A stretch of DNA of 64,000 nucleotides from the NCBI GenBank assembly GCA_965287045.1, contig OZ336885.1, forward strand, positions 65,720,001 through 65,784,000, read 5' to 3'. Positions 2,085 through 59,844 of the stretch are shown here, piece after piece (position 1 is the stretch's first letter; each line of letters begins with the position of its first letter). The stretch comes from Carcharhinus amblyrhynchos. Lineage: Eukaryota. The notes below the pieces were generated by a model. The model was not told the DNA's origin. It searched no databases and was given only the letters and a program-made list of their open reading frames with translations. The position numbers were made by a program, and so were the translations under genes.

Positions 2085-2120
2085 ATCTGGACAGAATGTA
2101 CGCAAAGCTCAAACAACAAG
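2085..2120 (+). CDS. Micro-exon, 36 nt, phase 1-1 (DLDRMYAKLKQQ)
   Basis: Branch-like ctaac, acceptor attgcattttag, donor AAG|gtagtc, open frame. Confidence 0.65.
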
Positions 2121-3722
2121 GTAGTCCGAATAACAACAGCTTATTATTCGAAGGGCAGCAATGATTTTGCGAGTTAACTAACGTTTTATCTCTGGTAAAG
2201 GAAGAATGATGCATGTGTTGAACGGTATAATATGTATCAATACTGCTAAATTTTAAAATAATACGTGCTGACCTGAGGTAAATAAAGAACATCAATCCTT
2301 GGAGTGTTTAACGAAGTGAATTTATTAAGCATGCGTCCTATTGTAGAATCATACGGAGCTGGAATTAAATGAATAAGCCAATAACGCGTCTCCAATTGGA
2401 AGCATCCATTTAGATACCTCGTGCTGATGGAGGCCGTAAAGGTTATAATCTTTCCTTCTTAATATTTGGAGAAATTTGCGTCCTCTATTTATTTACATCA
2501 CAGTTAACCAATTCTTGATAAGTAATGTGCTAAAATATTTCAGCGGAAGGTGGGAACATGGATCAGTGAAATCAACCAGGATATTCGTGGTATACTCAAT
2601 TCGCGTAGTCCTATTCATCAGCACACGACATGTGTGACAGAGATGTCGGTAATTATATATGTCTAACAAGTACAAAAGCCAAATGTATGAACATAAAAAC
2701 GCAAACGTCAAGGGAAGAGCTAATAGAAACATGGGAAAGAAATGGGTGTCAATTTGGTGTTGGGCTGATTAAGGTAAATTGATATAAATGATTCAATGGT
2801 ACACGAACTCAGTACACAGCAACTGAGCAGAACAAGCTTTGTATTTTGTTTGCACTAACTGAGACTAAAAATGTTGAATGAACAACTGAAATAATCGAAG
2901 TCGGATCACCACAATGAAATAAATCTAAAAAGGAAGAAAACGAGCGATTGACAGAGCTTATACATTTGGAACAATTACAACGGTATTTTGGATAGTCAGT
3001 CCAACGGATCCAAGCAGACTCAACTTATTTTGAGCCGCGATTATAATTTATTTGATAGCATAGATGACGTCTACACAACTGTGCAGAGAGAGAAAAAAAA
3101 CATTTGCAAGACAACATGTGCGTTGTTTGCTGGAACATAGAGGGTTGTCAAAGTCATTCTTTCGAAGATTCTGCAATAAATTTGTGTTTCAACGTTTTGA
3201 TTTTGCCCGATGGCGTGTAATAATCACTGTGACAGAAACAAAATGAGAGCGCACTGGAACTATTAGTGACGCACGTTATTCTGTTCCATGCTTCCTTTTA
3301 AATCTTTCAGTAAAATCATATCGGCATTTTTTTTCATTATCTGCATCAATCTAAAAGTACGTTCAACATGACAGCACATAAAGACAAAAAAAGGCATGCT
3401 ACATTGCACAGTGGAAAATCTCTAAAATAAATAAGACATATTCTAATTGACAATGCTGGGATGTTCATCGCATGCATTTCTGTCAGATGAGTGTTTTTTT
3501 GAAAAAAAATATACGGTGTCGAATAAATTGAGGAATTAACATACATATACAGTTTTAAAAGAAGACTTACCACGATATTCCCATAAAATGATGGGCATAG
3601 ACACAACAAGACGCAGATGTCAATGATCAAATGCGTGTATATGATTCTGAGACGCAACCAGTCATCGTTAAGTTCCCTTTTCAAAACAAGCAACAATATT
3701 AAATAATAATATTGTTTTGCAG

Positions 3723-3749
3723 AGGAAGAGTTCCAGCGGAAATCAAACG
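3723..3749 (+). CDS. Micro-exon, 27 nt, phase 1-1 (EEEFQRKSN)
   Basis: Acceptor attgttttgcag, donor ACG|gtaaat, open frame. Confidence 0.65.
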
Positions 3750-6433
3750 GTAAATAAAGAACGAGTGCAGGCAATGTTTGCAGTTGATCATTTATGCAAT
3801 ATAAAAACACAATATAGAATATTGTTTGATTTTTCTGATTAGTATTTCACCTGCGTTGCGAATGTGCCCAACATAGCTTTAAGCAAACTTTCCATCGTTA
3901 ATTCTCAAATACGAAGGACATACTTGGAGCTGTCCGTTTATTACTGGCTGATATTAAGGATCGTTACTTGCAAGTGGTATTTAGATTTGATTGAGATGAA
4001 GTAAAATAATTTGTTAGCGACGCTTAATTCACAACACACTTTGCATTCACTGCCGTATTTAGGACGAAACGCCTCTTAGAAGAAGATCGCAATTATAGAG
4101 GAGATTCAACCAAAATCTGTTCCATAAAAATATTAGTTTGAATTATGTATCCAAGTTGTGTGTTATGTGAAAGTTAAGACACAGAGATAGATGTTTCATG
4201 TTGCGATCTTTTCTTTAAAAGGAGCACAATTCCTTTTGTTTCATTTCCCGTTATCAAAAATATGCTCTCATTTGCTTTGCGAACATTCAAACGCTCTGAA
4301 ATGAATCGGTGATCTTTTCATCACAAGTAGATATTTCCATCGGTTTAAAACTGCGGCAATGATTTCAACTTTCACAGGAACGGGAGAATATTCATGTCAC
4401 ACCAGCACTTATTCAACTTGTGCAAATAAATTGTGGCAAGACACACTTTTTTTGCACAACGGATAATACGAAGTGCGATGTAATTCTAAATGCTCTTACA
4501 CTTGAAGAGGCAACTTTTGCATGATAGATATGCTCCCATAAATTGGGTCTCATAATCCGTTCTTACACGCCAATAGAGGGAATGCAACAGTGTCCTATGT
4601 CCGACTGGCATACATGTATTACCCGTCCTCATATATTACAGTTAGCAGCAAAGACATAACAATAATTATGGATCAAGATAATTCTGATGCTGGGATTAAG
4701 TGTTCCTTTCAAGAATGGCGAAGTTGAAACTACCAAATATTATTTTCAAATATTATATTATTTGTGTCACTTCGTGAAATGTTGTGTTCGCCAGCATTTG
4801 ATTGCAAAGCCAAATTGCCCTTGCGTGTTTGGTGCTGAACAGCGTATTTGCTTCGTAAGCATACAGATGCAGACCTTCAGCGTTCTTACGGAAGAAGTTC
4901 TAATTGTAATGCAATAGCCGGGAAGGAAAGGCAAGGTAGTCATATGCAAATACGTATTGCAATTGCGTGAACATTTGAAGTTGGCGATCTTTCTGGTTCG
5001 CGGTGTTGAGGCGCAGTTCCTGAAATACAACGCTGCAAACAAGCTTCAGTGGATATGTCATGTGTCTTTTGTGTGTCCTATACATTTGTTTTCTCTGTAG
5101 TTTCCCATATACAAAGTGAATTTTCGAACTTTTGGATGGACTGCATTCCATCTGAAATGCTTTGGCCAGGATGTTGCAGAGCCGACCAATGTTACTGGAA
5201 TTAACTCATTCCGTTAGGGGTCCAGAACTATTTTTAAAAAAAGAAAAAATATCTCGTGCAACGTGGGAAAGAAACTCTAGGGAGAGAGAAGGTGGACTGG
5301 GCATTTCCCAGAATGGCTTGCGCCAGATTATTTTTTTCTGGTCAATGCATATTTTCACAATAATAATTAATTAAGAGGACAACATCATATTAGGCCATTG
5401 AATGGCAAGGGGGTATCGGGACTTTGGAACCATCAAAACAAAGCATGCATAAAATGCAAACGTCACTTGAGGGTCATTATTCAACTGTAAAGTATTATCC
5501 AGATTGTGACGAATATCATGTTTCACGATATTCTCGCCGCGAATGCTACTGAATACTGCAGGGTTAAGTAAATGCACTTCACCAGAAATGAATTTGAGAC
5601 GCCGAATGGTAAAACAGCTGAAGGTGACTGACTTGAGAGCAATTATTTGAAAAAAGAATGTTGCAACAATGGCTAGTCACATTGCGAATTGGCATGAATC
5701 TCCAACCAACATATGATCTGCACTAAGCGTTTCTGGAGGATTCGAGGCTTCACTGAAGAACACAAACGTTATCGCATTTAGTTTTATTTCGTGAGCGTTC
5801 CTGTGCAAATTTACTCTGAGCAGCACGCCATTCGAGCGCCCCTGCTGTTTATTTTGACAGGCAGTTGCTCCGAATTCATGGCATCCATTTATACTGCTGA
5901 TAAATCATTGAATAATTTCTGGAACATTGTGATGCGGCAGGTACACAGAACGTGTCCCTCTTCCCAGTTTGGTTTTTCATAACGCTTACTGTGTTTTTTT
6001 TTTAATAGCTCGCACCACATTTCGGGCATCTTCAGTAGACAGGCATCCAGATGCCATCTGCACGCTTCTTTAATGGTCCGTGGGAAGATCTGCATTTTTA
6101 GCAAATCCCTTTTAGTCTCTAATTGAGTAACTTTCTGGATACCTTCAGGGCCATTTCGCTGATTGCTGCATTGATTTTGGGCAAGATTATGCGAAGTTCA
6201 ATTCAAGTGAGAATGGTGGTTTCCCTTCTTTGGCGGGCTTTAAGAATCACTTTTTTTTGCAACACTAAGTAGGTTGGCCATCATGAAAATAACATTCGGA
6301 TGCAAAGGCTTTTCTAACTGCGAACTAAAATTTTAATTGAATTCATTGCCTTATAATTCCCATTAAGGTTTTGTACCTGTAGGTCAAGGTCATTAGAGAA
6401 ATGTCAGTGTTACTATTCACATGATTTAAGAGC

Positions 6434-7740
6434 ATAAGAACATAAGAAATAGGAGTAGGAATAGGCCATCTAGCCCTTCGAGCCTGCCCCGCCATTCAAT
6501 AAGATCATGGCTGATCTGTCGTGGCTCAGTTCCACATTCCCGCCCTCTCCCCATAACCTTTAATCCCCTCGCTTATCAAAAACCCATCAACCCGCGTCTT
6601 AAAAATATTTAGCGAGGCAGCCTCCACCACCTCAACAGGCAGAGAATTCCAGAGGTTCACCACCCTTTGAGTGAAGAAGTTCCTCCTCAACTCCGTTCTA
6701 ACCCCCCCCCCCCTTTTATCTTGAGGCTGTGCCCCCTAGTCCTACTGTCCTTTCAGAGAAGGAAGAGTCGCTCCACCTCTATCCGATCCATCCCATTCAT
6801 CATCTTATACGTCTCAATGAGATCTCCCCTCATCCTTCTAAACTCTAACGAGTACAAGCCTAGTTTATTCAGCCTCTCCTTATAGCCCAACCCCCTCAAC
6901 TCCGGTATCAGCCTAGTAAACCTCCTCTGCACTCCCTCCAAGGCCAAAATATCCTTGCGTAAGTACGGCGACCAAAACTGCACATAGTACTCCAGCTGCG
7001 GCCTCACCAATGCCCTATACAGCTACAGCAAGACCTCCCTACTTTTATATTCAATCCCCCTCGCTATGAAGGCCAGCATCCCTTTAGCCTTCCTGACCAC
7101 CTGCTGCACCTGCAGGCTGGGTTTTTGCGACTCATGCACAAGGACCCCGAGGTCCCTCTGCACCGTCGCCTGCTGCAGTTTTTCGCCACGTAAGAAATAG
7201 TCCTTCCTACCATTATTCCTACCAAAGTGGACCACCTCGCACTTGCCAACATTAAATTCCATTTGCCATTTCCTGGCCCATTCGCCCAGCCTACCTAGAT
7301 CCTTCTGCAGACTCTCCACACCCTCCGCGCAATTTGCCGTTCCCCCAACCTTGGTGTCATCAGCAAATTTCGACACCCTACACTCGGTTCCCTCCTCCAG
7401 ATCATCTATATAAATGGTTAGTAGCTGAGGCCCCAGCACCGACCCCTGGGGCACTCCACTAGTTACCATCCGCCAATCCGAATAGCACCTGTTGACCCCC
7501 ACTCTCTGCCTCCTATTTGACAACCAATCCTCTATCCACGCTAACACCCTACCCCCAACTCCATGCCCCCTTACCTTCTGCAATAACCTCTTGTGAGGTA
7601 TCTTGTCAAACGCCTTCTGAAAAACAAGAAAGACCACATCCACCGGCCCTCCTCTATCCACCGCCCTAGACACATCCTCATAGAACTCCAATAAATTTGT
7701 CAGACACGACTTCCCCTGAACGAAACCGTGCAGCGTCTCC
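6434..7740 (-). mobile_element. Young 5'-truncated CR1 LINE (RT domain plus 3' UTR)
   Basis: ORF 7023-7748 has HGFVQGKSCLTNLLEF, SGVPQGSVLGP, KFADD; ORF 6753-7010 continues after a single stop; 3' tail repeat (cataagaa)2 at 6434-6449. Confidence 0.97.
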
Positions 7741-8254
7741 TCGATCAAGCAATTCCGCTCAAGATTTTACTATTACATCTGCTTTCCTTGGGAGCGGCAG
7801 AGTCGTGCTGTTTGGACAACGGAAAATATTGCATCCGCTATGTTAAGAACATATTTCCCCTTCGCAAAGGTTTCATGACTTGGCGCGCATACCGAGTATT
7901 GTCCAGATTCGTCTGTTACAAGTGAATTGCAAAGGTCGCGGTGTGGAGCCTCTAGATATTTCCAATTGTAAGATAACCGAAGAACTTTGAAATAATGTGG
8001 CAGGGTTGCATATTGATCACTAAACATAATCCTCAAAAGTTTCAGGTAATGGTCACCATAGCGGGTTATCGATTCATTACTTCTCAGAAGGCTAAGTAGC
8101 AGAAGGACTTTTGCCTTTTTGGTACATTCTGTGAGCTTGCATGAGCAATAAATGATGTTCCAAACACTCACTTGGCAAACAGCTGTTGGTTTTATATTAT
8201 TGTGCATCGATCACTTTCTCCTCCTAGCACGGCATGATGACCTGCTCCGTTGGA

Positions 8255-9395
8255 ATTGCATTGATTCAGTACGTTGGTCCAGTGCTTCACAGGGTGGTGA
8301 AGAAGGCATACGGCATGCTTGACTTATTTCGTCAGAAAATTGAATATTGGAGGTGGCATGTCCAGTTGAAGTTCCACAAGACAAAACTAAGCACACTCTT
8401 GGAAACCGGCGTACAGCTCTGCTCACCTTAGTTTTGCATTATTCATTCGTGGGACATGACTGTCGCCTGGCTGTCGAGCATTTAATATTCTATCCCTAGT
8501 TGCCCTTTAGAAACTGGTGGTAAGGTGTTTTCTTGGTTTGCTGCAGTCCATGTTCTGTGGCTTGTCGAACAATGCTATTTTAGGGAAAGAATTCTAAGAT
8601 GCTGACACAGGGACTACGACGGAACGGCAATGCATTTCCAACTCAGGATGACGAGTGGAGAGGAACTTGCATTTGGTGGTGCTCGTGTGTATCTGCTGCC
8701 CGTATCCTCCTAGATAGTGGTGGTATTGTATTTGGAAGGAGCTCTCGGCGGATATTTTGTGAATTGCCGAAGTGCATCTTGTAGATAGCACTCACTGCTG
8801 CCATTGATTTTCAGTGTTGTGGAGATTAAGTCTATTTTGATGTATTGCTAATCAAGCGGGCTGTTTTATCCTGGATGGTGTCAAGCTTCTTGACTGTTGT
8901 TGGAGACGCACCTATCCAGACAAGTGGTGATTATTCAATCACACTCGTAACTTCTTGCAGGCGGTAGATAGTCTTTAGGGTGACAGGTGTGGTTTACTGG
9001 CCACGAGACTTTGGACAAACTGAGACATTTTCCCTGGAGGGTAGGAGGCTTGGGGTGGTCATATAGAGGTCCATGTAATAACGAGGGTCATAGATCGCAC
9101 AGATAGTGAGGATCAGTTCCCAAAGGTAGGGGTATCTAAATATAAGGGTCAGGGGTAGTCATCAAAAATGATACAGAGGGACAATTGTTTCCACACAGAG
9201 AATGTTGATTGACTGGAGCGAGTTGCCAGAAGTAGTAGTAGATATGGGTACAATTTTAACTTTTTTTGTTACATGGGTAAAAATGGTGTGACGGGCTGGG
9301 GGGAAATGGAGACATTTGGGGCTTTCTCGGCGTAAAAATAACAGTGTGGATAAGTTGGGACCAAGTGTCTGTAAAGATGTTTTGAACCTGTACGA
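8255..9395 (+). mobile_element. Decayed CR1 3' fragment, split by an inserted LINE end
   Basis: RVVKKAYGML...KIEY at ~8290-8350; CR1 continues from ~9001 (LDKLRHFPLE) to a decayed 3' UTR. Confidence 0.75.
8438..9000 (-). mobile_element. 3' end of an L2/CR1-group LINE inserted in the CR1 fragment
   Basis: tgaa-like tail at ~8440 and a 3' UTR shared with the copy at 14910-15160; minus strand resembles the LINE RT C-terminus (e.g. IYKMHFGNS). Confidence 0.7.
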
Positions 9396-9889
9396 ATGAA
9401 TTATTTTATTTTGAGCACTGTCTATTATGAGCCGTGTGAAAATACTGTCAAACAAAATAATAATTCATGTGAACTAAACTGCAACTTGACTCGGGCTCTG
9501 AGTGATTTAACTGTTGTGTCGCATTGTGGGCCGTCCTCGTGCTTTGATAAATTCGATAAATGCAAGTGGTGTTCCTTATTTGCTTTAGAAACAAATGGAA
9601 TGCGTGTGTCTGTCTGTTCGTAAGACCAGTTTTGTGACAAAAGTTTTATTTCAATTCCTTTACAAAATGTTCTGATGAATTCGCCCTGCTGAAGGCACAC
9701 AGGGAAAAGTCATTAATGGAAATGCACAATAGTGCCCTGAAATCAAATTACACTTTTCAGCTTTTGCTTATTTGAAAATGTAAATCTATATTGGCCTGCC
9801 AGCATGAGCAATAACGTTTTTTTTAATAAACAAAATAATGAATGAACATTTGGACAATCATCGGCTAATGAAGCGCCAACTGGGTGCAT

Positions 9890-10345
9890 TCAGCTTGGAT
9901 CATTAACGCCATACTGAGAGTAATGAACATTTTGGAGTGTAGTGAGAATTTTATGGACCTGACTGACAACGAAATGTTGATGGACGTAGTATACTTGCAA
10001 TTTCCGAAGGCTTCTGATGAAGCTAAATGAAAGCACATCGGATAGCTGAACGTACATGTGGCGGGCGTAGAGAAAATGTACAGAAGAACTGAACTAGGCA
10101 CTCTCAGCGCGCTGTTGTTAATAAGGAACAGTAAGAATCAACATGTGGGAGAAACTGATCACTTAAATTTCAAACGTTTGGATGTCACGATGAATATTTT
10201 TGGGTCATACAAAATGTGTGAATTTTGTTGAGAGGAAGAGTTAAAGCAAGTCTGTAACATTATAAATGTCTTAGTTGTATGTGCAAGTACAGGATAGATG
10301 GAATACCACGCTCTGGAGGTGGTTTCATGGACTCAATATCATACC
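9890..10345 (+). mobile_element. Very decayed, internally deleted CR1 fragment
   Basis: gacgtagtatacttgcaatttccgaaggcttctgat = DVVYLQFPKASD (cf. DVVYLDFQKAFD); cttatgttc tail near 10332. Confidence 0.6.
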
Positions 10346-10577
10346 GCTGTCCTTATGTTCCTCTGTTCCATCGTAATTTGACGGCCAGCCTTGGCAGCAA
10401 AATGGCCTATCTGCTATAACTTCATTTCAAATTAAACAATCTATATTGCTCATTATCTCAACCTTGATTGTAATGTTATGATTTTTTTTTTTCATTTCAA
10501 AGCAAGAATGGAATGGAATAAACTCTACTGTGTTAGAACTGATTTTTCTGGTCACAGTTAACAATTTATTTCTCAAG

Positions 10578-10613
10578 ACCATCGAGATTGTTTGCGGAAC
10601 TTCAAGGACGTCG
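10578..10613 (+). CDS. Micro-exon, 36 nt, phase 1-1 (DHRDCLRNFKDV)
   Basis: Acceptor tttatttctcaag, donor TCG|gtgaga, open frame. Confidence 0.6.
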
Positions 10614-11028
10614 GTGAGAAAATTCATATTCTTGACAGAGTACAATTATTTCATTTTTTTCATACTACATTTCGCCTTTTTCGATATCAATAAGAAAAAG
10701 ATCAAAGAAGCATTTTAATGAATAGTGCAAGTTAAACACAGAACCTGAAAATGATATACAGCAGTGCTGCAAATGGTTTACAAGAATTCTCGTTCAGCCT
10801 CGTCACCTTATGGCTGTCGACAGTTATCTATGCTAACAATCAGTTGCATGAAATGTCACCTGCATCATCAAATCCATGCCGAAGCATTGGTCATGAGGGC
10901 AGACTGCAGCGAAATATCATTACGGCCTTGAACAGTAGATTGAAATAATACTCTGGTGTAGGAGGTTAGACAACGGGGGAACAATTAAGTTTGAGCGTGG
11001 GGAGGGCGTAGGGCAGGTTGTGTCTATG

Positions 11029-11078
11029 TATATATATAGAGAGAGAGAGAGAGGGAGAGAGAGAGAGAAGAGAGAAAG
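11029..11078. repeat. (TA)n(GA)n microsatellite
   Basis: Directly visible. Confidence 0.9.
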
Positions 11079-12514
11079 AACACTTGGTTTGACCTGTAAA
11101 TTTGAGAGTCCGCCGAATATTTAAGGTATCTGTGTTGTGTAGTACTGGTCGGTCACTTGGCATTCCAAAATGATTGAAATTTAATTTATGACTTAGAATA
11201 CCGAATCAAAACGTAAAATGAAGCTGAGGGATATTGTTACAACTTTTTAGGGAGTCCCACGTTTGCGTAATACAAAATCATATTTAGCTTGGTACACCAG
11301 TGTTTGTGACGGTGAAAGGCGTGGATGTTTCTGCTGGTCGGGCGATGCAAGGTTGCTATTGGGAAAGAGTGAGAGTTGTTCCTCATTGAAAGTGGAGGAT
11401 TGCAAGGACAGTTATGCCAGGAACAATGGTATTATTTTGTTCTGTTCAGGCGCTGTTAGTTATTTTCAATCATATCGTTATGTTTCACGGTCCCGTGAAG
11501 CCATGAAACCAAAATGAGTATTCCTGAGTGGTTCGTGACTGAAAGGCCTCAGTGGGATCGGGGTCTACTCAAATGGATGTCGTGAAATGGACTGTGGTTT
11601 ATTCAAGTTTCACAAATTCGAGGCGTTTACTATCAGTACAGCAATTTATCAGAGATCCTTAAATGTAAGATCCGGTTAGCTGTAAGCTTGCAGATGGCCC
11701 TTGGATGTCGTACTTTTAAGGAGTATGTTGTCTTCGGCCCTGCAATGCGAGAGAGCGGTAGTATCGCTTCCTCTTGTACTTGTTTATTTGGGGGGCGGGC
11801 AGGCTGAGTGTTGTTTTTTTTTTCCTTTTTTTGGATGGACGAATGTCGTTTGTTGATTTATTTGACGGTTGTTGCCTGCACCGTTTTGTTGCATTAACTG
11901 TTCACAACGTTAATTTGGGTATTAGCATATATGCAAGTAATTATCGAGTTACATTGCATGTAGCGTTCACAAGTTGCCATTCTTGGCTTTACGTTCAGAG
12001 ATAATGCCAGAGTGTCCACGAAAGCAGAGGTCGTCCATCGACATTTCCCTGAATGTTGTTGTGTCTTCCTGGATGAAGGATATCATCTCTGTCAGACGTG
12101 CATTCACAAATTGTGTTCTATCTCAATCTTCCACTCATTCTATTTACTTCGGGAAACGCCTGTTAAAGTCCCACACTTAAGTGGAAATTTCGTCTTGAGC
12201 AGTAGAGACCGAATAATACATGCTGCTGACAGATGAGAAATCGTGAAGTTTACCTATTCTAAAATATTGTCTGCGCATGAATTGAATACTCAAATATTAA
12301 AATCAAGTCGTGCAGACATCCAATTACTGAAAGATTGCATTCTCACTAATTAAAGATTTTAAAACAATATTCATCTTTAATGAGTGCGATTTAGTGAGTG
12401 CGATGTATATTTTAATTCCATATGTAAACACCACTTTTCCAGCAAGATTCAAAAGGAAGTATTGAAATGTGTTTGCTTAGTTAATAATCATTATTCTATT
12501 GTATTCATTAACAG

Positions 12515-12541
12515 AAACTGAAATGGTTATCAACGATGCAG
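12515..12541 (+). CDS. Micro-exon, 27 nt, phase 1-1 (ETEMVINDA)
   Basis: Acceptor ttctattgtattcattaacag, donor CAG|gtagct, open frame. Confidence 0.6.
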
Positions 12542-13894: not shown

Positions 13895-14215
13895 GTAATT
13901 AATTAAGGATCCATGTACACCGGCATATTCTTCCATTTCGTTTCTGGCGAACAAAAACACAAAGATCCGAGGACAAGTACCAACCGACTCAAAAAAGAGC
14001 CTCATATGTGTTGTCATCAATCTTCTGAATGGACTTGAATCACATTAAGTTGATTATTTCTATTCCCCTTCTATGACTGCAACAACACATTCTGCAGTCT
14101 TTCACTTCCTTCTGTATGTCGGGTCTGAATTGTCTGTACACGAGCATGAAACAGTGCTTTGCAATGTACACCACTACAGATGACAATATCAAATCAAACC
14201 ACGTCAAATCAAATT
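13895..14215 (+). mobile_element. Rex1/Babar LINE 3' end, decayed
   Basis: KDP..P / RT.TNRLK-like remnant followed by an (aaatc)n tail at ~14190-14213. Confidence 0.65.
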
Positions 14216-14479
14216 AACTCTCTTTCATTACTGGTTGAGAAAATTACATTCTTCCAGATTCGACGCCACTGCAAGCTTAGACAAACGGGTAACAATTGTG
14301 ATAATAGTATTGAAGATGTTAATTGTAACGTCGTAATTACATGAGGCAGCGCATTTCTGAAGTCAGTAATTTCTGGAGCATAGCCAATCTTAGATCGGCA
14401 AGTAGGAAGTAATATTCGCTCCAGGCAAAGCAAGACCAGTTATGACATGCATGCAGAGAGTCACACTGGCGCGCATTAA

Positions 14480-14531
14480 TGTGTGTGTGCGTGCGCGTGT
14501 GTGTGTGTATGTGTGTGTGTGTGTTTGTGTG
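14480..14531. repeat. (GT)n microsatellite
   Basis: Directly visible. Confidence 0.9.
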
Positions 14532-14909
14532 CTGGAATACATGGTGGCGGGAGGAGGTTTAGGGTTATCAGTGAGGTCAGGTCGACAGCAATTCAGAATA
14601 TCTTTATTCTTTGGGGAACAGTTAATTCCTGCATCACCAAATCTTGTCATGCAGTGACAGGACAAAATCAGGGGACTGATGGAATATCCCGCAGGACTCT
14701 GAAAATAGATTGAACCTGCAATAGCAAAGAAGTTTATGGCAATAGAAAAAAAACATAATGCTACGAAATTGACGCATTATTGCATCTAATTAAGTCGAGA
14801 TGCTACTCACTGGTTGCTTTGTGAACATCCGCCATAAGCAATGCAGGAGAAAATCCTATTTCCCTCATGCGGCAGCTTTCAAATTAAAAAAAAACTATTA
14901 TTTTGAAAG

Positions 14910-39338: not shown

Positions 39339-39377
<39 letters not shown>

Positions 39378-45906: not shown

Positions 45907-45907
45907 G

Positions 45908-49812: not shown

Positions 49813-50005
49813 TGACCACTGTGGACTGAACAGAGACCAAGGACGACCAACTCCCCGGAGGTTGAGGGTAAGGAGGATTACCTTCTGTATATTTCCAGCC
49901 TGACACTTCAGCCTGTCCGTCTATCTCTTCTCAAGTGGCAAAGCGGCAATACTAAGGGTCACGTTGTTGCTGCATTCCCGGCGTCGGGAAGTGACAAGAG
50001 GGCGT

Positions 50006-50523
50006 TGTCACAGGCGGGAGGGACCAGATCATTGGGCGGGACCTATTAGGGAACATCAACGCGGGTTCGATTGATCGGCCTCGCCACCACTCTCCATAAG
50101 GATTGGCGGCATAGGGAGGTGACGATGGTCGAGCTGGTTATCTGGGTGAAAGATGGTCAGCTCAGACGTGCGGCGTTCTGGACTGCCGGGAGTCTCCGCT
50201 CGGGACTGGGAGTGGTTGGGATCGTTCGGGATTTGTGGTCTGGTAGCTTGTCGCCGGCAGTTGTGGCAGTGGCTGGCAACGAGATGTCCGGGAGGCACGT
50301 GGTCACGGGGTAAGTGTGCGTCGGGAACTTGATTTATGGGGCTAGCGACAATTCAGGGGGCCGGCAATGCTGTAACAACGCTGATGTGATGTTTCCCTCT
50401 GAGCGTGTTTTGAACCCTGCATTTGGATATATCTCACCTCGTAATCTTAATTCTGCGTTCGTGAGAAATAAGGGTACTACCGTTTTGGTTAATAAAAAAA
50501 GCAGAATTTAATACTCTCTATCA
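50006..50523 (+). repeat. LTR-like GC-rich segment
   Basis: TG...CA bounded, AATAAA near the 3' end, adjacent to the Gypsy fragment; no TSD seen. Confidence 0.35.
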
Positions 50524-50949
50524 TGAACACTAAAAGGTCTTTATTTTGGAATTATTTATCAAAACAATTAAGAAGCTGATTAACAATGCTACTAGAACGA
50601 TATTCTAACAATGCAAGATACACACACACAGACACACACATACTTCACGTTTGAATTTTATTGTTTCTGTGCGTCACCATCCTTGATTTACCACCATTTG
50701 TACCACTCAAGAAGAAACTTTGCTATGCTCGAACTTTCGTTGCTGCTTTACAAACAAAAGTTTCAAAATTGTCTTTTGCAACCAATTTTCTACAGTTTAA
50801 TATCCAAAGCACAAGACGCATGTTTTTTTTTAAGGCAACGACATACGATATATTCTTCTGGTTTCAACATTTATTTTCAATATGTACTTTTGTCAGAAAC
50901 CAAATTTTTAGCGAAATCAATGAAGCTTAATGACACCTTCCCCTAAGGA

Positions 50950-52700
50950 AAAAAAAGATGAACCATCAGCAACAAAAGATGGCTATATATTGTTATATCC
51001 GCGACAAAACCTCGGCTATGAACTTTTCCCCACCCACAATATGAATAATGTTTCAATCAAACAGTCGTAACATTAACCTCCACCGAAACGCTCGGCCCTT
51101 CTCGTTGTTAAATTGACCTGCACTATCATGCGTTTAACGTCAATATATATTGTATTAAAGGTATTATTGCTAACACAAATCTGACAATGTTGTAAGGTCA
51201 TCAGTAGATGCAATAACACATCATCTCGCTGTGGAACATTTCTTCTGATGTAAGTTGAGTTTCTTTGAAACACAACAAATTAGCCTTTCAATGCCATAGT
51301 CAACCTCTTATAACATTACAGCCCCGACACCCATATCGCTGGCGTCGATTGCGACTTTCGAACCTTTCTGCAAATTTGCTGTAACCAGCGCGGGCACAGT
51401 GGTGAGAATGTCAGTTAAACGTTGGAATGCCGGCTCGCATTATTCTGTCTCTTAATTTGTGTTTTTCTTCGGCAAATTATTTAAGGATACCATTGCAGTG
51501 CTTGAAATTCGGCACAAGCCTGCGGTAGAGTCCACTCAGTCTCAGAAATCTGAACACGCTTTTTTTCGACGGTGGATTGGGAATTGTTGTACAGCCTTAG
51601 CGTTTCAATTTCCTGGTGTCATCTTCCGGTTTCAAATATTGGGTCCCAAGAAGGGCACCTCAGTCTTGGCAAATTATGTCTTTGCAAGATTGAGTGCGGT
51701 CTTGAACTTCCGTAGTCACTCGAAGCGGTCTACTAAATGTGCGATTTGGTCTCTCCAGGACAGGCCAACTATCTGTGAATCATCGATGTAAACAGCACAA
51801 TTAGAAATCCGGTCCACTACTCAGGTTATTAGATTTGTAACGCATTGTTTTCATCCAAAACGACATTACTTTAAACGGATATAGCGCTCTGTAGTTACCA
51901 GGCTGAAATTTATTTCGTTTTGACCGACATAGGAGACTGCAATACCCGCGACGTAAACACATCTTGCTAATATATGCAGCTTGCCCGATCGTTTCCACAC
52001 AATTCTCCAACCTTGGGAATGGATTGGAATCCAATAGCATCAGTAAATTGACTTTCCGATAATCCATATCGAATCGTTGAGCACCACTGGGTTTAAGGAC
52101 TAAGACGACTGGTGAACTCATTGACTTTGACTCGACTCTGCTGTGTCATCTCACAGCATCACTTTTAATTTATGTTCCACCTGTTCTGCTCTGAGAGAAT
52201 TAAGATTGATAGTCTGATGTTTTATTAGAACAGTCTCGACGTAAACCTCATTTACTCTGGCATCGGTCCACTTCACCATTTCCCTACACAAGTCATTATG
52301 TCACTTTAATAGGTCCTTCAGTTTTTTTCTGGGGGGGGGGGGGGCACTTAAATTAATACCTGATTCCAGTTTGATAGTTCTTTGGAATTATTCAATTTGT
52401 TTAGAGGTGCATCAAAATCCACATCCTCCGAACTTGACTCCTCACTTTGAAATGACGTAACTCATATCAGTTTCTCGGGTTCCTCTCCAAGATCATAATA
52501 TTGATTCAGCATGTTCGCATGATCTATATCCTGTTTAATATTTGAAACCTGAACACTTGTGTCTGAGCTTTTAACTGTTTTTTTTTCATTACTTCCTGAA
52601 CTATAGTGGCAACTTAATCATGTTCATCCCCTTCGTCTTTCCTTTTGTGCTCTCTCATATTTTAACACACACTGTAGGATTTTCCCACCTCATAGTCCAT
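50950..52700 (-). mobile_element. Ty3/Gypsy pol fragment, Gmr1-type domain order
   Basis: RT SSPVVLVLKP..QRFDMDYRKVN..FKVMSF (51801-52121), RNase H VAIDASDMGVGAVM (~51310-51360), integrase C-terminal-like HANMLNQY upstream of RT (~52500-52525). Confidence 0.85.
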
Positions 52701-52849
52701 ACCATTTCACTGTTTATCCCCTTCACTCCCTCATCAGAAGGCTTCTTTAGTGAGAGGAAGAAAATTCCCATATGCATATCAAGCTGAACATTGCTGGATA
52801 ACCTATTTTATTTTATTATTATTTTGCAAACCTCATAAATGACTATGAA

Positions 52850-53990
52850 AGTGTGGAATTAGTAAGATTGTGGATGACAGAAAGATTGGCTCGGCGGCCA
52901 ATAGTGAGGCTGAACGCCTTGAGTAACACACAGATAATCTGTGGATCCGTGGTAGATGCAAGTTAAAACTGAAAAGTGTGAGGGAAAAGCGAAATAGAAC
53001 CAAGGATCACACATTAAGAATCCAAGGTAGACAGTTTAGCACGGGGGTGAGGAGACATTTCTTCAGCCAAAGAGTGGTGAGGCTGTCGTACTAACTACCA
53101 AAGCAAGTAGCTAATGCCAAAACATTGAAAGTATGCAAAGGGCAACTGGATATTGCATTTGGAGCGAATGGGATCAAAGATTTTGGTGAAAAAAGCACGA
53201 TTGGCCTATTGAGTTGGATGATCAGCCACGATCACAGTGATTTCCGGAGCTGAATCGAACGGCCAGCTGGCCTCCTCCTGCTCCTATCATCTACGTTTTT
53301 ATGTTTCTATGGGTTCTTTGGCAGATAAATATTTAATGAACAACATGATGCCAAGAAGCATGTGGAATAACAAACTTGGCATGTCTGTCCATAGATCTCC
53401 GAAACTAGAATGCCAACAGGACGCAATATGTGCCATTTGGGTCACTGACTGTGATCAATTGAAGGATTGATTGTAAAAGGAAGGAAGACGTGTTGGGGAT
53501 GCATGGAATTTCAGTGCATGGTATTCCACCCAGGTCGTCATATAACTAGAATAATGCTGCTATAATGGAGGGAGTTCAAAGGAGATTCACGAGAATGCTG
53601 CCTCTGATGGAGCATTTAAGATATAGGAGCATTTAAGATATAGAAACAGCGAAAATACGCGCAGGAGTAAGCCATTCGGCCCTTCGAGCCTGCACCAGGA
53701 TTCATTATGTTCAAGGCTGACATTCCCCTTTCAGTATTTAACTCCCACTGGCTTTGCAAACTCCTTGTTCCCTTTGTCTTCTTGAGTCTTAATTGACATT
53801 AGAAATTTGTATCAATTTTCCTGACGGAAGAACATGGAAGAAACTAGGTCCGGGGTGCCTGGATGCTTATCTGTAATGGTTTCGTGGCCGACTGTCCACG
53901 TGCAGATCCCTCTTGCACGTATTTGACGAACTGGCCAAAACTGCTCTTTGTGATAGAACATTCCACAGGTTCACAATTCTCCGAGTGAAG
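52850..53990. mobile_element. Cluster of decayed CR1 3' fragments in both orientations
   Basis: + strand 3' UTR ending tttatgtttctatg (~53310); RT piece 53340-53625; - strand 3' end from ~53640 (gccattcggcccttcgagcctgc, as at 6465). Confidence 0.75.
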
Positions 53991-53999
53991 ATTTTTGTT

Positions 54000-54620
54000 T
54001 CCATTTTTGATTTGATTTGACATGATTTATTATTCTCACTTGAATGATCGAATAGAGAAAACTATTGTTTCTTGAATGTTATACAGACAAAACATCGTTT
54101 TTATATATATAGAGAGAGAGAGAGAGAGAGGAGGAAAGGAAGGTGTACATAACGAAGTGTCATTGTCATAGGGGGGTGTAGAGAAAGAGCAACTTAGTGC
54201 AGGGTACATCTATTCAAAGTCTTTTGGCAGCAAGGAAGAAGCTGTTTTTGAGTCGGTTCATACTAGACCTCAGAATTATGTATTTTTTTTCCGACGAAAG
54301 AAGATGGAGAAAACTTTGTCCGGGATATTTGGGGTACTTAATTATGCTGGTTTTGTTTTCCGAGACAACAGAATGTGCACACAGATTCAAGGATGGGAGG
54401 CTCATTTGGCTGATTGATTGCCGACATTCTAGATTTTTTGTAGTTCATTGCGGTGTGTTGGCAGAACAGGAGCCATACCAAGCCGTTATACACGCAGGGG
54501 ACAAAAATGGTCTGTAAAAGTGGGTGAGAGTCCTAATGTAAATGCCAATTTAACCATGTCTTCTGAGAAAATGGAGGCGGAGGCGCTTGTGGTTTAATTA
54601 ACTATAATGTCACCGTGGGG
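54000..54620 (-). mobile_element. Rex1/Babar 3' fragment containing a (TA)n(GA)n microsatellite
   Basis: SIIKYPKYPGQSFLHLLSSEKKYIILRSSMNRLKNSFFLAAKRL; (atttg)n tail at ~54008-54020. Confidence 0.85.
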
Positions 54621-54699
54621 GAAAACATGAAATATTGTCGGTGATCAGGAACATAAAACTTATTCTTCTAAATTTCTGTCCGTACAAGCTCAGTCGATC

Positions 54700-55215
54700 C
54701 AAAATGTTAACATGTGTCAGCGCTGCCATTCAAAGAATCAGTCTGGTGGAACTTCGTTGGACTCCCTCAATAGCAAGAAAGACCTTCCTCAGACTAGACA
54801 CCAAAACACGCTCAAACATGCTCAAGTTGTGGTCTCACCAAGACCTTGTGTAACTGCAGCAAGACATGTTTAATTCTATGCACAAAGCCTATTGCTATGA
54901 AGGCTGCACGTCATTCCCTTTTCACATCGCCTGCTGAACCTGCATGACAATCTTTAGCGGCTGATCCACCATGACACCCAAACAACACTGCACTTACCGT
55001 TTTCGTAAAATGCCACCGTTCATATAACAATCTCCCTTCTTTTTTTAGTCTCCAAAGTGAAGAATCTCACGTTCACATACATTAGACTGCGTTTTCGAAG
55101 TGTAAAACAGGTTTTCTCAGCCACTGGGCAGGTCCTTAGCATTTTTCTCAATGCACACACTGCCACCGAGCTGAGTGTCTTCCACAAATTTGGAGGTGTC
55201 GCATTCAACATAAAT
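54700..55215 (-). mobile_element. Decayed CR1 RT fragment
   Basis: SKFVEDTQLGGSV (cf. SKFADDTKLGG) and LYKVLVRPQLE-like sequence. Confidence 0.75.
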
Positions 55216-55367
55216 AGCGCCTGAATAGGATAGTGTTGTTTTCAGTGGAGCAGAGAGGACTGGTGTGCGACCGAAACAAGTTGTACAAGAATATGGGGAG
55301 AGTAACAATGACACAACAGCAGTATTTGAAAGGTCAGTCAGGAGGTGAAATCAATTTGATGGGGAAG

Positions 55368-55705
55368 ACACAGACAGTGACCCAAGCCGGGAGTCGAACA
55401 CAGGACCCTGGAACTGTGAAGCAGCAGAACTAACCACTGTGGTACCGTGCCGCCCACCGAAAAAAAAAACAACCACAATCACACTCAGACCCTATCGCCA
55501 TAAGCCCACATATTCACAAGCCGAATCCCGCTGACATTAACGGGAAAATTATCATGACCAATCAACCGAAACTACCCACTTCTGGACTGTGCGAGGAAAC
55601 CGGAGCCTCCCGAGGAAACCCACAGAGACACGGCCAAAATGCGGAAACTCCACGCAGACAGTGATCCGAAGCTAGAAGTTAACCAGGATTTCTGGCGCTG
55701 TGAGA
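55368..55705 (-). mobile_element. Two tRNA-derived SINE pieces
   Basis: SINE head at 55368-55455 (gggcggcacggtaccacagtggttag on minus); core and body at ~55480-55705. Confidence 0.8.
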
Positions 55706-56862
55706 CACCCTATGCGCTGAACCGACTCGTCAGCACTTATGTTGCCCATGTATCTGACTATTTTTTTTCTCTTATACAGAAACAAACAACTATCACACCC
55801 AACATAGATTTGGCTGATTTGAATCATAGCCGTTCAGATTTCTCTTCCGTATTTTGACCCATTTTGTTATGCAAAATAATTCCTAAACAAGCTCCGATCC
55901 GAATTTTCCTTCCCCATTCTCTAGGACGCCCATGATTTGTTCCAAAGTTGTACTTGTTTGCTCTTAGCACACTCTGCTATCAAACAAAGGCAAGTCTTCA
56001 GCACATAAGTAACAATTCTGCTTTCTCCTGTGGTACAGTTTTTTTGGGACCTCCCCTGGTTCCCACAATTTAAAGTGTGTGTGAATGTGTGGGGGGTGGG
56101 GGGGGGGGGGGGCGGTTGAATTCTGTAACCTACCGCATCCCCAAATCTCCCAGCCCCCATGCAAAGCTTAATACATCATATTTCTCAACTCCTGAATATC
56201 GAAGGCGAAACACCCAAACCTGAAACATTAACGTTCAATTATCTTCAAACAATTTGCCAGGCTGCATGAGATCTCTCAGCATTTTTCTGTTTTAAACATT
56301 TCAAACAAATGAGCATTTTGTTTTCTCTGTATCTGCCAGATGTTTTCTCATTCGATCAAACACTACAATTTATTTTGAACTTCTACATTTTCTTTGTTAC
56401 ACACTTCCGAATGCTGGCATTACCCGATTTGTTTTAATCATATTCTTGGCCTGAAATCTGTCTCAGTTTTGCTACTTATTCAAAAATAAAAGCGCAGTGA
56501 TGCAATATAATCATATTTAGCGGTATCTAATTTAACTTAATTAGCTGTGCAAAACATCCATTGCAATAAACGTGTAAATTACTTAGCACATGCCTGGCCA
56601 TGTATCGCCAGAGACAATTCTGATAACAAATGTATTTTCAGTTATGTGGCATAGGGGCCCAAAGAAATACCAAATGTTCAAAAAAAAACAAACATTAACG
56701 TGAAAATAAAATGATTCACATTGGCCACTCTGATCCGACACTGAACGCCGTCGGCTGTCGTAGCCAGAAAACGCATTTCCGGCATTGGACGAAAACTTCT
56801 CCCTGATATATTGATGCCAGAAACAGAATGAAGCAGAAACTTTCTTTTTGCTTCTGGCACAG

Positions 56863-56961
56863 TTGAAAGGGAGGAAATAATCAATAACGAGGATATGAAA
56901 ATAAAACACAGAAGTGAGAGCAGTCCGAAATTGAAGACTGATTTACCAACATGTTTGTCAC
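56863..56961 (+). CDS. Exon, 99 nt, phase 1-1 (xEREEIINNEDMKIKHRSESSPKLKTDLPTCLS)
   Basis: Acceptor tttctttttgcttctggcacag, donor CAC|gtaagt, open in phase 1. Confidence 0.65.
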
Positions 56962-58954
56962 GTAAGTACATTTCTTGTCTTTCATCGCGGAGTTATGCAA
57001 AAAACAATGTTCCGTAAAAGTTATGTAAAACTGTTTCTCCTCGTGAAGGCGCAGCGTTCCGAACTCTCGTCATTCCAAGTAGATCTGTTTTACATGAGTC
57101 TGATGTTGTGGGACTTCGCTGTGTAAAAATGGACAATCCAAGAGAGACACATAATTATTACATAGATGGAATGGGCAAGAATACCAGATTAAGTGCAAGG
57201 TTGCGTAAAATATACCTTTCAAAATTAAACATTGGCCTTCACGATCCCCGCCCCATCACAACATGCATCTTTATTTCCCATTCCAAGCACAGGTTACATG
57301 TTTGGATGAAACCATGCGACTCTTTTTCTTTTATTATTTGGAAACGGAAGCTACCATCTGCTTTGTGAAAAGTCTATCTCTACGCTGTCAAGGTAACTAA
57401 GCAGTTAAAGTTCGATGTAGCAGCTTCCATTTGGCATTCCGCGATGTCAGATCTACAAAAGGACAGGCTACAATTTTCGAGGATTTTTTTAAATATTATT
57501 TTTGTTTGTTTAGTGTCACTTCATCAGCCCATTCATTCCGTTGGGCGAAAGGGGCCTGCGTTCGAATCCCCGGCACAGACTTCAAGAATTCACACAGTTT
57601 GACACGACGAGGCAGAGTGATACGTCAACTGTTTTCTGTAGTATCCAGCTTGTCCTTTCCAATTTCATTGAAAAAAAACAGATTAAACAATGCTGAGAGT
57701 GAATGGTTGTATTTATTGTAATATTTCACTGCACCCCGCACCCCGTGCATCTAATAATTTTATCGACTATCAACAAAACCAATGCAAGCCAGAATATTCT
57801 TCTCAGTTTAAAACATTATTGCCCCTAATCAGTACACTTTTGTTTTGGTGTGCTTTGACAATATAATGGTCCAACTATACACCTGTTACTGGAATTGTTG
57901 AACAAAGGAACAATGTTTGAAAAACGAAGAATGGTGCATTTCGCCGTGAACGTCAATGATTAAAGCAGTATCTTAGAAGCATTTCTACTGGAAGATACTG
58001 AATCTAACTTCAGCAAGGAACGCCTGAACTTATATATGATCGCACCAAAAAGTGGTAAATACTAACGGCGCATCAAAACGGACACAATCTAATCATCGCT
58101 TTTGTCCTAATATATGGCAAATATAATTGCAGTTTCTTTTTTCCATTCCCTCCCACAAAGCAGGTTTTAGTGATATTATGTGATTTCTGGAAACGCAGTA
58201 AACCGTATTATACTGATAATTTGCTTCTCTTGCTCCAGCAGTTATTCGGAAACTAGCGGCAAATCAATACAGCGGCCCTGCTCATCCTATCATTCAGGAA
58301 CAACAACAAAGTCGTTCATTTCGAATGGGGAATTGCTGTGTATTTTCTCTCTGTTTTCTCCAATAACACTTGCAAAAATAACGATTGACAGCTAACGCAA
58401 GTACACATGAGTTTGTTTTCCCAATTTACCAAGATCATACAACCAATGAGACAAGAAGGGTACTTTTCTCTTGGATTCTTCCACGGCTGTTACAGTGGAA
58501 ACAAACTCCTTATGTATGCGTGAGGGTATGGCTAAATCCGAATTCTGGAAGCTGACTGACAAAGGAATATGACAGTTGGGACACAGATTATAGCGAATTC
58601 AACGTAAGTTTCAGCAGCAAATTAATGCGCCTCCGAGAAGAGATTCTGCTCTGTCTTGGTAGCACTTCCTGTCACAGGCGTGGTTAGTTGTATCATACCA
58701 GTTGCTGGGATACTTAAAAAAAATTAATGTTGATGGAACTTCGCTGTATATAAGTGACTAGCAGCCTTCTAAGAACTACAGCAGATGCGCTATTTTTTGT
58801 TAATAAAAATCATCATGTGGTCTTATGATCTGTAAAACATATGAGTAAATCCTGGTCCGGCAGATCCTATGGAAAGGAACAATGGGATAAATAAACCAAA
58901 TATGTACGTTTAAAACCTCAGCTTCATGGAAGATTTTTTTGTATTTCATTTCAG

Positions 58955-58990
58955 GTTTGCAAGCAACCAAAACAAAGAGTAAAACCAAAG
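58955..58990 (+). CDS. Micro-exon, 36 nt (or 24 nt to 58978), phase 1-1 (RLQATKTKSKTK)
   Basis: Strong acceptor tttttttgtatttcatttcag; in-frame donors AGA|gtaaaa and AAG|gttaga. Confidence 0.6.
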
Positions 58991-59796
58991 GTTAGAGTGA
59001 AAAAAAAATCATGAGATTCAGTTGACAATTTATGATTCATTGTTCCGTTACTCATTGAGCCGATGTAACGTATAAATCATTGATGAATAAGACCACATTG
59101 AAAGCAAAGTGCACGTTTCTACTCCAAAGATGTACAGCATAGTAGCCCTGGACATGGCAAACTGTTCTTTAGTGTCTCAAAAGATTAATGTTAGAGGAAT
59201 ATTGGAGGTTAAACTAGGGGCTTACGCGGATAGGGCTGCAGGATGGATCTCGTTAAGATGCCTCGCTCGAAAGTTTGTTCAGACTTTTTGAGCTGAATGG
59301 CTTGCATCTATCCTGCCGTGTTTCTATTATACTGTGACATTGAGTACCTGATGTTTGATGCCAAGGCAACGGAATGGATATGACAGTGTTTTGTAGGGTT
59401 AAAATGTGTAAGGAATCACTGCATTAACTCATAAAATTGTTACAGTCTGCAGTTGAGTTCAATCACAATGTCTTTGTAATGAATGCAACGCACATAATTA
59501 TGATGGAACTGTCAATCGATGGAATTTAGTTCTGAGGTCGTTATCGAATGACATTGACAAAATAGTTCAAATTATTTATTTTTATTAGTTCGTCTGAATT
59601 TTGCGAAATTACGTCAAATGCTCTTCGATGCCGCCGTTAAAAATGCAAATACAGACTGACGTTAAGCATAGTTTGTCGTAGACAATATGGCCCAAGTACT
59701 AGAGCTTTAAAAAAAATCGCCAAAACGCAAAAGAGGGCAACTTAAACAGCCCAGAGCGTCATTGTATACATCAGATCATCGTTCTCTGGTCTGCAG

Positions 59797-59844
59797 AATT
59801 ACATGCTCGAATTAATCCAGTTGATTGTTGGATAAAGAGAGGAA
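59797..59844 (+). CDS. Micro-exon, 48 nt, phase 1-1 (ELHARINPVDCWIKRG)
   Basis: Acceptor gttctctggtctgcag, donor GAA|gtgagt; second in-frame AG at 59820. Confidence 0.6.

What the first reader, a model, noticed from the sequence alone, without database searches (positions are those of the whole stretch)
2085..59844. Hidden micro-exon gene: ~19 symmetric phase-1 exons spread over 58 kb
Seen: in unique AT-rich DNA between the repeats, pyrimidine-tract/AG acceptors pair with GT donors at 24, 27, 30, 36, 48 or 99 nt. All are on the + strand, all are multiples of 3, and all are open in phase 1 (starts 2085, 3723, 10578, 12515, 16036, 17605, 18893?, 20255?, 21906, 26695, 28672, 31973, 34061, 35786, 36222, 37820, 56863, 58955, 59797). 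Spliced in order: DLDRMYAKLKQQ EEEFQRKSN DHRDCLRNFKDV ETEMVINDA DLSRLEGDSKKA RLHKYISPRS [GAYGLLLIKLRR SRTIVEFC] GAQILRDEL DECNALVQNI SSQHLLKME EIQRLEDELKNA RNKFKEEEP EKEMGKTGN ALDAMDQTT TFAKSTVIWVFE ... RLQATKTKSKTK ELHARINPVDCWIKRG. Known: arrays of tiny symmetric exons occur in butyrophilin/MOG/avian BG cytoplasmic tails, triadin and schistosome micro-exon genes. Inference: an unannotated or under-annotated shark gene of that architecture; family unassigned because no Ig, TM or B30.2 exon was found in the window. My by-eye search was biased towards such lengths once the pattern emerged.
Basis: partly seen in the sequence, partly recalled or inferred. Interest (0 to 1): 0.9.

Follow-up and report, generated by a model that had tools for sequence, protein, structure and literature searches.

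The report
Giant micro-exon rod gene in shark
The tiny 27- and 36-base segments in this window lie inside an array that runs about 900,000 bases to an exon for a B30.2 binding domain; they are likely the spliced exons of one undescribed shark gene, predicted to make a very long coiled-coil rod, and likely one of six such genes lying side by side.

Summary
Real, and far larger than reported. All 19 segments have AG/GT ends and are open in phase 1. An unbiased scan of the flanks alone gives 72 plus-strand 27-nt and 54 36-nt AG..GT pairs, against 12 and 10 on the minus strand. About 13 claimed exons are well or fairly supported; 18893, 20255 and 37820 probably are not exons. The array runs from about -205 kb to an intact phase-1 B30.2 (PRY-SPRY-type) exon at +716 kb: about 0.92 Mb, roughly 200 exons, over 2,000 residues. 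A 36+27 pair encodes three heptads in fixed register, with cysteines at core positions. Six related B30.2 exons lie in this 6-Mb region, alongside matching exon signatures; the three placed on a tree form their own clade. No Ig, RING/B-box, transmembrane or signal exon was found, so it is filed neither as butyrophilin nor as TRIM. Best reading: a cytoplasmic coiled-coil rod with B30.2 heads. No RNA was available, so splicing and single-gene continuity are inferred. This scan noted the same gene type in other sharks; my literature searches found no description.

The parts
1..64000 (+). the whole window is inferred to be an internal slice of the gene. Outside it: 21-nt exons from about -187 to -62 kb, 27/36-nt exons from -45 kb to at least +710 kb, and the terminal B30.2 exon at G000:C16:66436397-66436911 (+716 kb)
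2085..2120 (+). 36-nt phase-1 micro-exon, core residues at 2, 5, 9
   Evidence: score 18.9, local FDR ~0, register +3.7
2622..2648 (+).
   Evidence: score 12.7, FDR ~0.5, fits register
3723..3749 (+). 27-nt phase-1 micro-exon
   Evidence: score 23.6, FDR ~0
10578..10613 (+). 36-nt micro-exon, Cys at residue 5
   Evidence: score 13.1, FDR ~0.23, register +2.1
12515..12541 (+). 27-nt micro-exon
   Evidence: score 17.2, FDR ~0.03
16036..16071 (+). 36-nt micro-exon
   Evidence: score 16.8, FDR ~0.03
17605..17634 (+). 30-nt exon, strong splice sites, atypical composition (uncertain)
   Evidence: score 16.1, FDR ~0.5 for this length class
18893..18928 (+). claimed exon, probably not real
   Evidence: weak donor, register -5.9; forms a stop if joined to 21906
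20255..20278 (+). claimed exon, probably not real
   Evidence: score 8.2; donor G at 20279 is A in 3 of 3 related runs
21906..21932 (+). 27-nt micro-exon
   Evidence: score 15.2, FDR ~0.03
26695..26724 (+). 30-nt candidate (weak)
   Evidence: score 10.1, FDR ~0.84
28672..28698 (+). 27-nt micro-exon (moderate)
   Evidence: score 13.9, FDR ~0.23, register -1.4
31973..32008 (+). 36-nt micro-exon, best heptad fit
   Evidence: score 17.6, register +5.3
34061..34087 (+). 27-nt micro-exon
   Evidence: score 18.5, FDR ~0
35786..35812 (+). 27-nt micro-exon
   Evidence: score 18.0, FDR ~0
36222..36248 (+). 27-nt micro-exon (moderate)
   Evidence: score 13.6, FDR ~0.23
37820..37855 (+). claimed exon; probably not an internal exon (a short alternative last exon is possible: stop just past the claimed donor)
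   Evidence: score 5.7; read-through stop
45750..45776 (+).
   Evidence: score 13.1, FDR ~0.23, fits register
56863..56961 (+). 99-nt phase-1 exon (a 51-nt donor is also possible), an unusually large candidate for this array
   Evidence: score 21.3, FDR ~0.14; no database match
58955..58990 (+). 36-nt micro-exon
   Evidence: score 25.3, FDR ~0
59797..59844 (+). 48-nt candidate (weak)
   Evidence: score 11.8, FDR ~0.85

Best explanation
The window holds about 13-16 likely exons from the first third of a roughly 0.92-Mb shark gene that would splice some 200 symmetric phase-1 micro-exons into a coiled-coil rod of about 2,000 residues ending in a B30.2 domain, predicted to act in the cytoplasm as a dimeric fibrous tether whose B30.2 heads bind partners. 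Shown in the DNA: the exon signature, its strand, phase and heptad register (36+27 nt = 21 residues = three heptads, with core positions at residues 2, 5, 9, 12 of the 36-nt exon and residue 4, plus Cys at 7, of the 27-nt exon), and an intact in-phase B30.2 exon downstream. Inferred: that the exons are spliced together, that window and B30.2 are one transcript, that two chains form a parallel rod of up to about 300 nm (0.15 nm per residue) which core cysteines could cross-link, and that the protein is cytoplasmic (no signal or transmembrane exon found). The rod likely grew by tandem duplication of exon-bearing blocks; selection appears to keep splice sites and frame but not the exact residues.
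For: Strand- and length-specific spikes in unseen flanks: 72 and 54 vs 12 and 10. Stop avoidance only in phase 1: 125 of 144 open vs 75.2 +/- 5.9 in 200 shuffles; phases 0 and 2 at chance. Hydrophobic fraction in 51 36-nt exons is 0.71, 0.63, 0.69, 0.35 at residues 2, 5, 9, 12 and 0.10-0.24 elsewhere; 0.64 at residue 4 in 74 27-nt exons; not reproduced in the other phases. The flank-derived register fits the 14 claimed 27/36-nt exons: 14.7 vs -22.8 +/- 8.2, 0 of 20,000 shuffles. 36-after-36 is depleted, 12 vs 20.9, P=0.0006. 23 of 33 Cys sit at predicted core d positions. A B30.2 exon at C16:66.436 Mb is the second-best hit of a paralogue's B30.2, in the direction and distance range the paralogues suggested; its acceptor is strong and phase 1, and micro-exons occur in 4 of 4 stretches sampled before it. 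In 19 hand-picked duplicate pairs, 2 of 76 splice dinucleotide letters changed vs 10 expected, with no stops.
Against: No transcript evidence was obtained, so no junction is shown. 134 of the last 163 kb before the B30.2 exon were not read (4 stretches sampled). The window's 36-57 kb stretch is among the largest gaps between confident calls (18 kb, vs up to 19.5 kb elsewhere, median 3.1 kb) and is followed by an atypical 99-nt exon, which a gene boundary could also give. The 99-nt exon matched nothing in databases that do hold shark proteins (control). Duplicated exons show no suppression of amino-acid change (56 non-synonymous vs 12 synonymous codons), and the unfiltered 38 pairs gave no splice-site signal (23 of 152 vs 26.7; that set held repeat-derived false calls). 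The start codon is not located. Model scores in the flanks are partly on training data.
Confidence: 0.62

Rival explanations
1. The exons are real but the array is two or more tandem genes; the window's left part ends a B30.2-less rod gene near 38 kb and a second gene starts near the 99-nt exon.
For: Large gap at 36-57 kb and a stop just past 37820. The neighbouring minus-strand array begins with a 111-nt exon of similar style. A small C9 array shows no B30.2 within 24 kb downstream.
Against: Gaps as large occur elsewhere in the array; a 27-nt candidate lies in the gap. The minus-strand paralogue shows the same order: 21-nt block, Cys 27-nt block, B30.2. Only one plus-strand B30.2 was listed on C16 beyond 63.07 Mb (150 of 334 candidates scored).
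Confidence: 0.15
2. A butyrophilin/BG-type membrane protein with a giant cytoplasmic tail whose Ig and transmembrane exons were missed.
For: 21-nt heptad exons at the 5' end and a terminal B30.2 are the butyrophilin tail layout (PMC5938342 passages). PDB matches include BTN3A.
Against: No Ig hit by tblastn of 120 TRIM/BTN-type proteins over 954 kb. A shark BTN IgV query gave 54 matches, none on C16, with 95 of 95 candidates scored. No Ig in Pfam scans of 86, 129 and 150 ORFs; no convincing transmembrane exon. A divergent minus-strand array closes the upstream space at about -279 kb.
Confidence: 0.09
3. A secreted, disulfide-cross-linked fibrous protein of the extracellular matrix or of a gland secretion.
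For: Cys concentrated at core positions. One signal-peptide-like first-exon candidate lies upstream of the minus-strand neighbour.
Against: 0 signal-peptide candidates in 110 kb upstream on the plus strand, while chance gives 1.6 per 100 kb; N-glycosylation sequons 2 vs 4.0 expected.
Confidence: 0.08
4. The segments are chance AG..GT pairs or the remains of a dead gene.
For: No amino-acid constraint in duplicates; 3 of 19 claimed exons fail.
Against: Spikes, phase-specific stop avoidance and register exclude chance. An intact B30.2 frame and stop-free duplicates argue against decay.
Confidence: 0.04

Closest known systems
Chicken BG proteins and the intestinal 'zipper protein' (PMC5938342, passages seen)
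   Same: Long coiled coil encoded by many small exons with a split first codon, 21 nt each; exon number varies between paralogues.
   Different: BG has signal, IgV and transmembrane exons, about 27-38 repeats and no B30.2, with core residues at codons 4 and 7. Here: no Ig or TM found, about 200 exons mostly of 27 and 36 nt, core at residues 2 and 5 of the 21-nt exons, and a terminal B30.2.
Butyrophilins (BTN3A, BTN2A; shark BTN-like P0100, P0103)
   Same: Heptad segment followed by a terminal B30.2.
   Different: Only a few heptads, and an Ig ectodomain plus TM. The B30.2 here is about 26-32% identical to shark BTN/TRIM domains and falls in a separate clade.
TRIM-B30.2 proteins (zinc-binding protein A33-like in sharks)
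   Same: Cytosolic coiled coil plus B30.2.
   Different: No RING or B-box exon found in 954 kb; the rod is about ten times longer.
Enterophilin-1 (architecture recalled, not from a call; only a citing passage seen in PMC13749957)
   Same: Recalled as a long leucine zipper plus B30.2 without RING or Ig, tied to endosomal sorting.
   Different: Far shorter; homology and exon structure could not be tested.
Schistosome micro-exon genes (features recalled)
   Same: Strings of tiny symmetric exons.
   Different: Those are short secreted proteins; this is a megabase gene with a fixed heptad register and a globular end domain.

Membership tests
Butyrophilin (BTN/BTNL) | IgV/IgC ectodomain exons upstream | tested here: not met
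Butyrophilin (BTN/BTNL) | transmembrane exon | tested here: not met
   no convincing candidate above background; a poorly scoring exon could be missed
Butyrophilin (BTN/BTNL) | small heptad exons before B30.2 | tested here: met
Butyrophilin (BTN/BTNL) | terminal B30.2 in the same transcript | tested here: inconclusive
   exon intact and in phase; linkage not shown by RNA
Avian BG | signal + IgV + TM | tested here: not met
Avian BG | tail of 21-nt exons, no B30.2 | tested here: not met
   about 12 21-nt exons only; 27/36 dominate; B30.2 present
Avian BG | MHC linkage | tested here: not met
   all 82 MHC class I matches are on C9; PBX on C9, C25, C33, C41, not C16. A small similar array does lie on C9
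TRIM | RING and B-box exon | tested here: not met
   tblastn over 954 kb negative; none of 150 listed genome matches on C16, 150 of 371 candidates scored
TRIM | coiled coil | tested here: met
   heptad register; predicted from sequence only
B30.2/SPRY-domain proteins | SPRY domain | tested here: met
   own exon: Atlas SPRY clusters 0.96, PDB TRIM58 E 9e-17; two paralogues pass the Pfam SPRY cut-off
Schistosome-type micro-exon genes | signal peptide | tested here: not met
Schistosome-type micro-exon genes | extensive exon skipping | not testable with these tools

The most novel reading that the evidence does not exclude
Cartilaginous fishes carry an old, undescribed family of megabase genes, here a six-gene, 6-Mb cluster, each stringing hundreds of 21/27/36-nt exons into cysteine-cross-linkable rods hundreds of nanometres long tipped by a private clade of B30.2 domains. 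Rod length would be tuned three heptads at a time by duplicating or co-skipping 36+27 exon pairs, making these among the most exon-rich vertebrate genes and a new class of cytoplasmic fibre or long-reach immune sensor that standard annotation misses.
Probability: 0.4. Interest if true: 0.85.

Novelty: new variant of a known kind. Interest (0 to 1): 0.68.

Why it matters
If true, about 6 Mb of one shark chromosome is a family of giant protein-coding genes that ORF- and homology-based annotation would largely miss. It stretches the butyrophilin/BG/TRIM tail design (heptad micro-exons plus B30.2) into a stand-alone rod tens of times longer than a butyrophilin tail, and gives a clean natural case of protein length built exon by exon in fixed coiled-coil register. 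It is directly testable with existing shark RNA-seq using the junctions implied by the coordinates here.

Tried and rejected
RNA: no RNA holder listed for window:14600-23800; this is no evidence either way. Contigs of 3 related-organism runs laid on 18400-38200: only 40 of 1,214 differences were shown, so exon-versus-intron conservation could not be measured. Protein searches with the ORF around 56863, the exon itself and the neighbour's 111-nt exon found nothing; searches covered only proteins up to 2,000 aa. Exact look-up of a paralogue's B30.2 exon: absent. Single-sequence fold of the B30.2 was unusable (pLDDT 33.5). A Pfam PRY genome search listed no C16 match but scored only 150 of 373 candidates. 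Idea that the C9 array hangs on the adjacent B30.2: rejected, that exon belongs to a complete TRIM with its own RING/B-box exon. Idea that 37820 plus a hydrophobic 36-nt candidate at 42218 form a transmembrane helix: rejected, the junction would be a stop. Plus-strand ORFs beyond +75 kb (273 of the 423 listed) were not scanned with Pfam, only by tblastn. Literature: 8 searches found no description of such genes. PMC10751288 (shark MHC) has no occurrence of B30.2, SPRY, butyrophilin, BTN, TRIM or 'coiled' in its main text. No supplements were read; genome-paper supplements could list these loci.
Full report
OBSERVATION. All 19 segments are as described: AG before, GT after, length a multiple of 3, open in phase 1, outside repeats. 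In the window the plus strand gives 8 pairs of 27 nt, 4 of 36 and 4 of 30; the minus strand none at those lengths. Over the whole array 125 of 144 are open in phase 1 versus 75.2 +/- 5.9 after shuffling, while phases 0 and 2 are at chance. The signal is real.

WHICH EXONS. With splice and composition models trained on flanks only and the minus strand as null, nine claimed exons have local false-call rates of 0.03 or less, four have 0.14-0.23, and 17605, 26695 and 59797 are uncertain or weak. 18893, 20255 and 37820 are at background. The donor of 20255 is absent in all three related-organism runs. 2622 and 45750 are plausible additions.

EXTENT. The window is G000:C16:65,720,001-65,784,000. I read 954 kb contiguously (-400 to +554 kb). 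The plus-strand array starts near -205 kb, with 21-nt exons from about -187 to -62 kb, switches to 27/36 nt at about -45 kb and is still running at +552 kb. From -45 to +554 kb the excess over the minus strand is 92 exons of 27 nt and 57 of 36 nt, 1,512 residues. With the 21-nt block and the last 162 kb at the same density this extrapolates to about 200 exons and over 2,000 residues. A second array starts near -279 kb on the minus strand and runs away from it.

THE CODE. In 36-nt exons hydrophobic residues occupy positions 2, 5, 9 and 12; in 27-nt exons position 4; in 21-nt exons 2 and 5; the pattern is not reproduced in the other phases. A 36+27 pair is 21 residues with core positions 2, 5, 9, 12, 16, 19, 23: an unbroken heptad. 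Two 36-nt exons rarely follow each other (P=0.0006). The split codon is Glu or Asp in 104 of 137 adjacent calls, and 23 of 33 cysteines lie at core d positions. This register, learned in the flanks, fits the window's 14 claimed 27/36-nt exons better than any of 20,000 shuffles. Every exon can be skipped without losing frame, but only 21-nt exons and 36+27 pairs can be skipped without losing register (inference).

THE END OF THE GENE. Exon-signature patterns hit C16 between 60.9 and 66.2 Mb on both strands: 12 of 13, 7 of 17 and 5 of 6 genome-wide matches. Earlier notes of this scan on other sharks suggested a terminal B30.2, which I tested. A SPRY motif occurs at 63.068 (+) and 63.149 Mb (-), where two arrays converge; both are SPRY exons. 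Searching the genome with one of them returns six C16 exons as the top six rows, the second at 66.436 Mb on the plus strand, downstream of our array. It is intact, has a strong phase-1 acceptor, and micro-exons appear in all four stretches sampled on the way. It matches TRIM58 and BTN3A structures and SPRY clusters. Three of the six B30.2 domains, placed in a tree of 36 rows (32 of the 120 retrieved proteins, chosen by hand), form one group (100/99), 40-50% identical to each other and about 26-32% to TRIM/BTN domains (midpoint root, no outgroup). The family is therefore likely old.

THE START. No Ig, RING or B-box exon was found: tblastn of 120 TRIM/BTN-type proteins over 954 kb gave four weak repeat-like hits, while the control B30.2 on C9 scored 3e-112. 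A shark BTN IgV has no match on C16, and Pfam scans of the 5' region were blank for these domains. No signal-peptide or transmembrane exon stands out, and glycosylation sequons are not enriched. The start codon is unlocated; a 24-nt exon with an in-frame Met at about -205 kb is a candidate. MHC class I genes are on C9, not C16. A TRIM beside the small C9 array is 92% identical to a Mustelus protein, consistent with a shark host and showing that the database holds shark proteins; the two larger exons tested still had no match.

EVOLUTION. Exon-bearing blocks have duplicated in tandem. In 19 non-independent pairs, from 12 query exons kept after dropping repeat-derived calls from 38 pairs, splice dinucleotides changed at 2 of 76 letters versus 10 expected, with no stops and 2 exon indels versus 5.6 expected; but 56 changed codons are non-synonymous and 12 synonymous. 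The unfiltered set was not significant. Structure seems kept while sequence is free or diversifying.

HOW IT LIKELY WORKS. By analogy with BG tails and butyrophilin juxtamembrane segments, described as coiled-coil dimers (passages of PMC5938342 and PMC7348870), two chains would zip into a parallel rod, up to about 300 nm if continuous, with paired B30.2 domains at one end and core cysteines able to lock it. Without a leader or anchor it would be cytoplasmic: a tether or fibre presenting B30.2 heads to partners, as the BG-derived zipper protein acts at the intestinal brush border. Tissue and ligand are unknown. I give 0.95 that the exons are real, about 0.8 that they share a transcript with the B30.2, and 0.62 for the whole reading.

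NOVELTY. The parts are known (heptad micro-exons, B30.2); the scale, the 36+27 unit, the missing N-terminal modules and the six-gene cluster were not found in 8 literature searches. Papers were seen as search listings, or as passages for PMC4046983, PMC5938342, PMC3137616, PMC13749957, PMC7348870 and PMC11788884; PMC10751288 was term-searched with no hits; none was read whole. Earlier scan notes mention annotated but unstudied coiled-coil-plus-B30.2 proteins in cartilaginous fishes; I could not check those records, so some family members may exist as database models. Verdict: real, new variant of a known kind, interest 0.68.

Noticed in passing
G000:C16:60.45-66.44 Mb: Six related B30.2 exons (60.449-, 61.084-, 63.068+, 63.149-, 63.736-, 66.436+) with exon-signature hits upstream of each on the matching strand; the three compared are 40-50% identical.
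   Followed up: partly
L042-L054 (window-relative -279 to -376 kb), minus strand: A divergent micro-exon array with a 111-nt opening exon and a roughly 23-kb tandem duplication; it may be the start of the gene ending at 63.736 Mb or a seventh gene.
   Followed up: partly
G000:C9:103.479-103.512 Mb, minus strand (L087-L089, L094): A compact array of about 13-15 exons of the same 27/36-nt type in the MHC-linked region, just downstream of a TRIM gene; no B30.2 seen in the next 24 kb. Two further B30.2 hits at C9:103.955 and 106.384 Mb rank among the three rows behind the C16 six.
   Followed up: partly
L038-L062 (window-relative +233 to +268 kb) and L069 (+339 to +343 kb): Recent tandem duplications of exon-bearing blocks (8-10 kb spacing, 87-94% identical around the exons; older 1-2 kb units in L069). 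One copy lost its AG and has another AG just inside the exon.
   Followed up: yes
window 42168-42240: A 35-bp tandem duplication that contains an AG acceptor, followed by a hydrophobic 36-nt open segment (42218); scores weakly, probably not an exon.
   Followed up: partly
L055:3612-3923 (+): Fragment matching a retroviral envelope family (Pfam TLV_coat) between the two divergent arrays.
   Followed up: no
L092:2471-3898 (-): Long proline-rich ORF inside an intron, by eye like a retroelement gag; not scanned.
   Followed up: no
L031:6780-8644 (+): LINE with an esterase-like ORF1 and an endonuclease ORF; similar LINE copies fill many introns.
   Followed up: no
G000:C46, C53: Clusters of butyrophilin-like IgV exons lie on these contigs, apart from the micro-exon cluster.
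   Followed up: no
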